A stretch of 55,215 nt of DNA, filler included, from Squatina squatina (Eukaryota): the NCBI GenBank assembly GCA_031763465.1. It is 2 parts of 2 records of this genome, joined end to end, with 100 filler letters (N's around TTAATTAATTAA, not from the genome) between each part and the next. Parts side by side here need not be neighbours in the genome. Positions count along the whole stretch, not along the records: positions 1 to 25,125 come from JARFOE010000004.1; 1 more part is not named here. One strand, given 5' to 3'. Shown one piece after another: positions 13,170-13,949 of the stretch. Positions within the stretch are counted from its first letter, which is position 1. Each line of letters starts with the position of its first letter. The translations under genes were made by a program, and so were the position numbers. The notes beneath the pieces are model-generated. The model was given only the letters and a program-made list of their open reading frames with translations, made no database searches and was not told where the DNA came from.

Positions 13170-13314
13170 CCTCTCTGGTATGATCCAGATGATCCTGAAA
13201 GTGTTTCACTTCTGCCCGTTGTCGATTTAGAGCTTGATTTAGTCTATCAATTTCTAGCTGTTGGGCATTTATGGTATTTGCTCCAAAATCAACTGTTTGA
13301 ATTTCACGGGACAT
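13170..13314 (-). CDS. CNTRL: Centriolin-like coiled-coil coding exon (isolated)
   Basis: MSREIQTVDFGANTINAQQLEIDRLNQALNRQRAEVKHFQDHLDHTRE aligns, from my recollection, with human centriolin FRLEMEKTGVGTGANSQVLEIEKLNETMERQRTEIARLQNVLDLTGS. It has heptad character and no stops, and ends at a canonical phase-1 donor G|GTAAGA (GT at 13169-13168). Confidence 0.75.
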
Positions 13315-13949
13315 TATGCTGTATCACACATCAAGCGAGCAATTCTTTTTGTTCCGTAAGGCAGAGGGAGCTAGAGTGTAGCTGATCTCAATCACACAGG
13401 AATCGACGCCCGTTTCTCCTTCAGCAAAGGAAAGACGAGTTGCTGGAAATGTTTAATGTCCCTAATGTGTTCATTTACAACAGAAATATTAATTAAATAT
13501 CACTGACTCAAAATACCTGTCTCGGTGTCATAATTTATTATGTCCTCTCATTTTAGCACTGTGTAACTGAAAAAAGCTGACCTCCCTCAGAGCAAGTACC
13601 AGTTTTCCTGAACATCCTGCTGTTAATACACAATTTTTACACTTCCCTNNNNNNNNNNNNNNNNNNNNNNNNNNNNNNNNNNNNNNNNNNNNNNNNNNNN
13701 NNNNNNNNNNNNNNNNNNNNNNNNNNNNNNNNNNNNNNNNNNNNNNNNGAATAGGGACTCAACAACAGCTTCTGCCTGAGGAATGTGATCATCTGTCAGG
13801 TGGAAACTTTTATTGTACATTTGATGCTGTCAAATAATCAGCTGGAGCAATGACCACGGAACTCTCACCTCAGATTGACAGAGGTGCTTCCCAAGCTGCT
13901 CGAATCCTGTGACCATGCAGGGGGGACAGGGTCTTAAATGGTTGTAAAC

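What the first reader, a model, noticed from the sequence alone, without database searches (positions are those of the whole stretch)
13170..13326. Lone centriolin-like exon that appears to carry its own start codon
Seen in sequence: a stop-free 48-codon coiled-coil exon with a canonical donor. It begins at an ATG with A at -3 (CAGCATA-ATG). An in-frame TGA lies four codons upstream (13324-13326), and the only possible acceptor AG (13319-13320) has a poor pyrimidine tract and opens 4 nt before the ATG. From recall, the peptide matches the middle of centriolin, a gene with dozens of closely spaced exons, yet I found no other CNTRL exon in the 13 kb downstream or the 42 kb upstream. Inference: this is (a) the first coding exon of a truncated or chimeric CNTRL duplicate, (b) a duplicated orphan exon, or (c) a short contig (13084-13648) misplaced by scaffolding.
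Basis: partly seen in the sequence, partly recalled or inferred. Interest (0 to 1): 0.7.

Follow-up and report, generated by a model that had tools for sequence, protein, structure and literature searches.

The report
Centriolin exon misjoined in shark assembly
This is an ordinary piece of the shark centriolin gene that has lost its front end and sits far from the rest of the gene, most likely because the fragmented genome assembly joined it to unrelated DNA, so its apparent start codon is likely an accident.

Summary
The sequence facts hold: ATG, TGA, AG, donor, and a centriolin (CNTRL) match (71% to ray residues 1061-1105). The interpretation mostly does not. Only 13170-13306 is CNTRL. RNA reads from a related shark continue upstream in frame with normal CNTRL coding sequence, whereas the window switches to other DNA at 13307, and the ATG lies in that other DNA. 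The real CNTRL gene is on scaffold C46, with an 8,022-N gap where this exon belongs; the window holds the only copy found. The assembly repeats this fault: a second CNTRL exon lies gap-free inside a BBS7 intron, an MMAA exon lies on another scaffold, and the MMAA last exon is fused mid-exon to LINE sequence. All three stray exons tested lack a home copy. Nearby GRIK2 exons carry a nonsense and two conserved-site changes. Best reading: chimeric contig (about 0.75). A real, dead captured fragment stays possible (about 0.15), since no DNA reads could be laid. A functional first exon is unlikely (about 0.02). The scan noted similar stray exons elsewhere in this genome (MMAA, PSMD14, CTNNB1, AKTIP).

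The parts
13170..13306 (-). 3' 137 nt of an internal CNTRL coding exon (45 codons, ray residues 1061-1105, plus the phase-1 G)
   Evidence: 9 of 9 RNA reads laid on the contig fall in 13135-13314, at 92-95% identity
13135..13169 (-). Canonical donor GTAAGA and start of the following CNTRL intron
   Evidence: 4 X1 reads stop at 13171 (consistent with splicing here) and 2 X2 reads run through the donor past 13135
13084..13134 (.). (AT)n/(AC)n microsatellite at the contig end, followed by a 100-N gap; hides the second junction if there is one
13306..13307 (-). Break point: CNTRL homology ends inside the coding sequence
   Evidence: 3 X2 reads leave the window sequence at 13306 and continue with in-frame CNTRL coding sequence; of the next 8 window bases 2 agree with the reads (my comparison)
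13307..13445 (-). CpG-rich non-CNTRL segment holding the ATG (13314-13312), the AG (13320-13319) and the TGA (13326-13324)
   Evidence: CpG observed/expected 0.87 against 0.18 further upstream; 5% of 850 GC-matched tiles have as many CpG; no RNA depth from 13315 on
13446..13648 (.). AT-rich non-coding DNA with one match in the assembly, origin unknown (host region or CNTRL intron)
24617..24781 (-). Context: last coding exon of GRIK2; the CNTRL piece lies about 11 kb downstream of its stop, same strand

Best explanation
The contig 13084-13648 holds 137 nt of a normal internal centriolin exon and the start of its intron, broken off inside the coding sequence and likely joined to unrelated DNA by an assembly error. 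Shown: the CNTRL identity, the break at 13306/13307, the home locus on C46 with an open gap at this exon's slot, a single copy found, and the same kind of fault in other genes. Inferred: a chimeric or low-quality read, or a short false overlap, was accepted in a thinly covered region; the scaffolder then placed the contig by its larger non-CNTRL part, 11 kb downstream of GRIK2. The ATG, AG and TGA would be chance words of the foreign DNA, and the animal would have one ordinary CNTRL gene in which this exon is spliced in frame.
For: (1) CNTRL home locus at C46:13.16-13.22 Mb with an 8,022-N gap (13191418-13199439) between the exons for residues 829-899 and 1106-1153. (2) One copy of this exon in four own-genome searches; an intact 5' end was not found (2 hits, both unrelated). 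(3) RNA of a related shark reads CNTRL in frame across the break (translation LKEKESQILD, ray LKDKENQILD) with no ATG. (4) The 20 CNTRL matches scored each cover a different part of the protein: 11 on C46, 7 on small unplaced contigs, 2 strays. (5) The second stray (residues 209-271) has intact splice sites, lies in a gap-free 2,013-bp contig with a BBS7 exon inside the ordered BBS7 locus, about 90 bp from a dispersed repeat, and is the only copy. (6) An MMAA exon on C16 is the only copy, away from its sister exons on C1. (7) The only MMAA last exon found is fused mid-exon and gap-free to a LINE endonuclease frame at its home locus. (8) A CNTRL exon at the home locus has a garbled, CpG-rich 5' half. 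(9) In 561 GRIK2 codons: one nonsense change and two changes at sites conserved in at least 95% of 57 vertebrate proteins, besides a splice-boundary codon, pointing to base errors. With about 55% of CNTRL recovered at home or unplaced, three true duplicates would all lack a home copy about 9% of the time.
Against: The junction was never tested with DNA reads: no DNA run was listed. The RNA runs are not from this animal's lineage (0 of 21 reads reach 99% at C46), so they show the ancestral state only. Near-identical true duplicates can collapse into one assembled copy, which weakens the 9% figure. No repeat, adapter or ligation motif marks this junction. Reads fit the window exon slightly worse (9 of 9 at 92-95%) than home exons (13 of 21 at 95-99%, 8 at 90-95%), a weak hint of a decaying copy, on few reads that may be duplicates. 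The GRIK-family exons inspected at 60% identity or more showed no break inside a contig, so such breaks are not everywhere.
Confidence: 0.75

Rival explanations
1. A real, dead insertion: a piece of CNTRL (3' part of the exon plus intron start, from DNA or unspliced RNA) was patched into a double-strand break downstream of GRIK2, like a class 2 templated sequence insertion; the true exon sits unassembled in the C46 gap. The ATG is incidental.
For: Gap-free junction without target-site duplication or poly(A); at least 172 bp captured, in the 73-414 bp range reported for experimental insertions (PMC5110952, passages read). Slightly lower read identity than home exons; two residues differ from all three ray proteins and P0003 at otherwise shared positions near the 3' end.
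Against: No home copy for 3 of 3 strays tested; the same lesions hit sole copies at home loci, where they would destroy genes; identity to ray (71%) lies within the 58-98% of other CNTRL exon hits.
Confidence: 0.15
2. The whole contig is CNTRL-locus DNA misplaced by scaffolding, with a local garbled consensus patch (about 13307-13445) that replaced the exon's 5' end; 13446-13648 would be the real upstream intron.
For: The patch is CpG-rich like the garbled exon half on C46; its in-frame translation resembles ray residues 1036-1060 weakly (score 31-32, reached by 0.5-6% of random segments).
Against: That similarity is post hoc, offset by 8 codons, and one of its nine identities is a residue that the RNA reads do not have; no overlap with the C46 locus or the seven small CNTRL contigs; nothing then explains placement on C4.
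Confidence: 0.08
3. A functional new first exon (or GRIK2 read-through exon) that starts a short centriolin-like coiled-coil peptide from the new ATG.
For: ATG with A at -3, open frame, intact donor, same strand as GRIK2.
Against: Chance frequency of such an ATG; no downstream CNTRL exon within 113 kb of scaffold, about half N; no protein with this start in the 32-104 aa search; use of the AG would give a 149-nt exon with a phase-2 start, against an inferred phase-0, 145-nt native exon.
Confidence: 0.02

Closest known systems
Centriolin (CNTRL/CEP110), ray proteins P0002, P0007, P0015
   Same: 71% identity over residues 1061-1105; donor falls before the Gly that begins the next exon found on C46.
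   Different: First three codons and the acceptor are replaced by other DNA; lies on C4, not with the gene on C46.
Interchromosomal chimeric contigs in reference-guided scaffolding (RaGOO paper PMC6816165, passages read)
   Same: One contig with parts from two loci, placed by one part; fixed N padding between contigs (70 of 98 gaps are exactly 100 N).
   Different: How this assembly was built is not known; the contigs here are about 1 kb, far below the 10 kb alignments that the paper's chimera correction uses.
Class 2 templated sequence insertions (Onozawa and Aplan, PMC5110952, passages read)
   Same: Short piece from a distant locus, no target-site duplication or poly(A) at the visible junction.
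   Different: Second junction not visible, donor copy not found, junction not confirmed by reads.

Membership tests
CNTRL internal exon | Protein similarity to centriolin | tested here: met
   71%, E 4e-9; named
CNTRL internal exon | Intact in-frame acceptor and 5' coding end | tested here: not met
   Reads leave the window at 13306; the only phase-0 AG is internal at 13259-13258 with 45% pyrimidines
CNTRL internal exon | Neighbouring CNTRL exons on the same scaffold | tested here: not met
   None in C4:2.269-2.494 Mb, 46% N; gene on C46
Assembly chimera | Home slot empty and no second copy | tested here: met
   8,022-N gap; single match, searches give lower bounds
Assembly chimera | Junction unsupported by independent DNA reads | not testable with these tools
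   No DNA run listed
Assembly chimera | Repeat, adapter or ligation scar at the join | tested here: not met
   No repeat match (which skips very common words); 0 hits for 4 motifs in 223,799 bases
Assembly chimera | Same fault in other genes of the assembly | tested here: met
   CNTRL in BBS7, MMAA stray and LINE-fused exon
Class 2 templated sequence insertion | Donor locus retains the sequence | tested here: inconclusive
   Home slot is a gap
Class 2 templated sequence insertion | Two junctions with host DNA, NHEJ marks | tested here: inconclusive
   Only one junction visible; the other end is a microsatellite and a gap
Class 1 insertion or processed retrocopy | Spliced exons, poly(A), target-site duplication | tested here: not met
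   Donor and intron retained, no poly(A) in the contig
Functional first coding exon | Transcription across the ATG and splicing to a downstream exon | tested here: inconclusive
   No depth from 13315 on, but the runs are from a relative and only 24% and 31% were read

The most novel reading that the evidence does not exclude
The junction is real, and this shark genome is strewn with captured single-exon fragments of housekeeping genes (CNTRL twice, MMAA, and by earlier notes PSMD14, CTNNB1, AKTIP), pointing to an unusually active break-patching process; this copy gained an in-frame ATG downstream of GRIK2 and could seed a new short coiled-coil gene.
Probability: 0.1. Interest if true: 0.6.

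Novelty: not a real feature. Interest (0 to 1): 0.1.

Why it matters
As biology it most likely does not matter: one ordinary exon, misassembled. As a warning it does: in this assembly 2 of about 25 CNTRL exons recovered sit in foreign scaffolds, and sole copies of exons are broken inside gap-free contigs, so lone, nested, fused or prematurely stopped exons from this genome need read support before being read as biology. If reads did confirm such junctions genome-wide, frequent germline exon capture in a shark would be new; listings of two searches showed no paper on shark CNTRL duplicates.

Tried and rejected
Pfam, PDB and ESM Atlas on the peptide gave only generic coiled-coil or unnamed hits. 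Word-based homologue searches found nothing at 87-2000 aa or 32-104 aa; the named centriolin that matched is longer than 2000 aa. The look-up of sequencing runs: no RNA holder listed; two raw-read runs came by species label only. I first read the three substitutions as paralogue divergence; the control at C46 showed the reads differ there too, so this was dropped. Exact search for the upstream exon motif found nothing, uninformative given about 5% divergence. A protein search for residues 985-1107 found only the window exon. Degenerate search for an intact 5' end gave two chance hits. Metagenome scan for the exon core: 0. Bacterial promoter scan is irrelevant to a vertebrate and gave chance level. 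GRIK2 own-genome search was crowded by paralogues and did not test home-plus-stray copies. No target-site duplication among local repeats. Papers: PMC5110952 and PMC6816165 passages only; search listings only; no supplements read.

Full report
Layout. The window is a pack with one joint at 25126-25225. The finding lies in the first stretch, which maps to G000 C4 with window 13135 at C4:2382117.

Observation. The peptide's best hit among 1.84 billion representatives is a 2,346-aa protein (71%, residues 1061-1105) named centriolin, Hypanus sabinus, with N-terminal LRRs. No other CNTRL exon was found in the 225 kb. The host region is GRIK2, on the same strand, with its stop at about window 24617, some 11 kb upstream of the exon.

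Where CNTRL homology ends. Two RNA runs were offered by species label. Nine reads were laid on 13135-13648, all at 92-95% identity; four stop at the donor, two run through it, and three leave the window at 13306 and continue with sequence that translates in frame to LKEKESQILD, against LKDKENQILD in the ray. Two of the next eight window bases agree with the reads, and there is no depth from 13315 on. So the ATG, AG and TGA lie in sequence that is not in the transcript. A control at the home locus gave 0 of 21 reads at 99% or more, 13 at 95-99% and 8 at 90-95%: the RNA is from a relative about 5% apart, so its three substitutions say nothing about paralogy, and it shows only the ancestral state. 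I infer, from the genomic-looking protein P0003 and from recall of the human gene, that the native exon begins at the Ile of ILDE (phase 0, 145 nt); this boundary is not shown. The window's AG would give 149 nt and a phase-2 start. An in-frame ATG before the first stop arises upstream of 26% of random breaks, and within five codons with a purine at -3 in 3.6%, so it needs no special cause.

The home gene. A search with P0002 scored 20 of 1,552 candidates: 11 exons on C46:13.16-13.22 Mb, 7 on small unplaced contigs, one on C1 and the window exon on C4, each a different part of the protein. Local mapping brings this to about 25 exons and 1,348 of 2,346 residues, window exon not counted in the residues; further exons may lie among unscored candidates. 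C46 has an 8,022-N gap between the exons for residues 829-899 and 1106-1153; the exon for 899-958 is on an unplaced contig and 959-1060 was not found. The window exon has one match by DNA and by protein, and no intact 5' end was found. The CNTRL acceptors measured have 55-75% pyrimidines (7 acceptors).

The fault is not unique. (i) The CNTRL exon for residues 209-271 has intact splice sites and lies in a gap-free 2,013-bp contig that also carries a BBS7 exon, within the ordered BBS7 locus on C1; it is the only copy and lies about 90 bp from a dispersed 110-bp repeat. The C16 exon has no copy at home. (iii) The MMAA last exon on C1 is fused without a gap, mid-exon and in frame, to a LINE endonuclease sequence. 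(iv) The CNTRL exon ending near residue 1948 on C46 has a clean 3' half and a garbled 5' half with CpG observed/expected 1.0 against 0.19, ending in a 55-bp repeat. (v) The next exon on C46 reads YCN for YWY, and nine GRIK2 exons (561 codons) show seven differences from the closest named protein: one nonsense, two at conserved sites, one splice-boundary codon and three at variable sites. If the three strays were true duplicates and 55% of exons are recovered, all three would lack a home copy about 9% of the time; collapse of near-identical copies weakens this figure.

Results against my reading. No DNA reads were available, so the junction is untested. No repeat, adapter or ligation scar marks it. 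Reads fit this exon slightly worse than home exons. GRIK-family exons inspected at 60% identity or more were not broken inside contigs. The segment upstream of the break resembles ray residues 1036-1060 weakly in the same frame (0.5-6% of random segments), which I treat as likely chance but which keeps the garbled-patch rival open.

Mechanism. Most likely (0.75) a thinly covered assembly accepted a false join between a CNTRL read and unrelated DNA, and the contig was placed by its larger part; both steps are inferred. A dead captured fragment of the class 2 templated-insertion kind (PMC5110952, passages read) gets 0.15, a misplaced CNTRL contig with a garbled patch 0.08, and a functional first exon 0.02. 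Chimeric contigs under reference-guided scaffolding are a known problem (PMC6816165, passages read); how this assembly was made is not known to me. Search listings showed no paper on shark CNTRL duplicates.

Verdict. A real CNTRL exon, but the lone, self-starting exon is most likely not a real feature. Interest 0.1.

Noticed in passing
L054:3423-5435 (G000 C1:4915423-4917435): Gap-free contig holds a BBS7 exon and, 1.5 kb on, an intact CNTRL exon (residues 209-271), the only copy found, next to a dispersed repeat.
   Followed up: yes
L114:9387-9794 (G000 C1:5517387-5517794, minus): MMAA last exon fused mid-exon and in frame to a LINE endonuclease sequence at the home locus.
   Followed up: partly
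L118:86-322 (G000 C16:3393125-3393301): MMAA exon away from its gene, among CCCH zinc-finger and kinase exons; no copy at the home locus.
   Followed up: partly
L046:3345-3703 (G000 C46:13173345-13173703): CNTRL exon with a garbled, CpG-rich 5' half inside the home locus, ending in a 55-bp repeat.
   Followed up: partly
G000 C4:2449937, 2409204 and 2393643 (the last is window 24661): GRIK2 exons carry K501*, N602K and H900L (numbering of P0016), likely base errors; the GRIK2 last coding exon lies at window 24617-24781, minus strand.
   Followed up: partly
L048:633-776 (G000 C46:13190633-13190776): CNTRL exon reads YCN where the three ray proteins have YWY; error or real change not resolved.
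   Followed up: no
runs X1 and X2: RNA runs offered under the same species label are only about 95% identical to this assembly at CNTRL exons, so label and assembly may not be the same species.
   Followed up: partly
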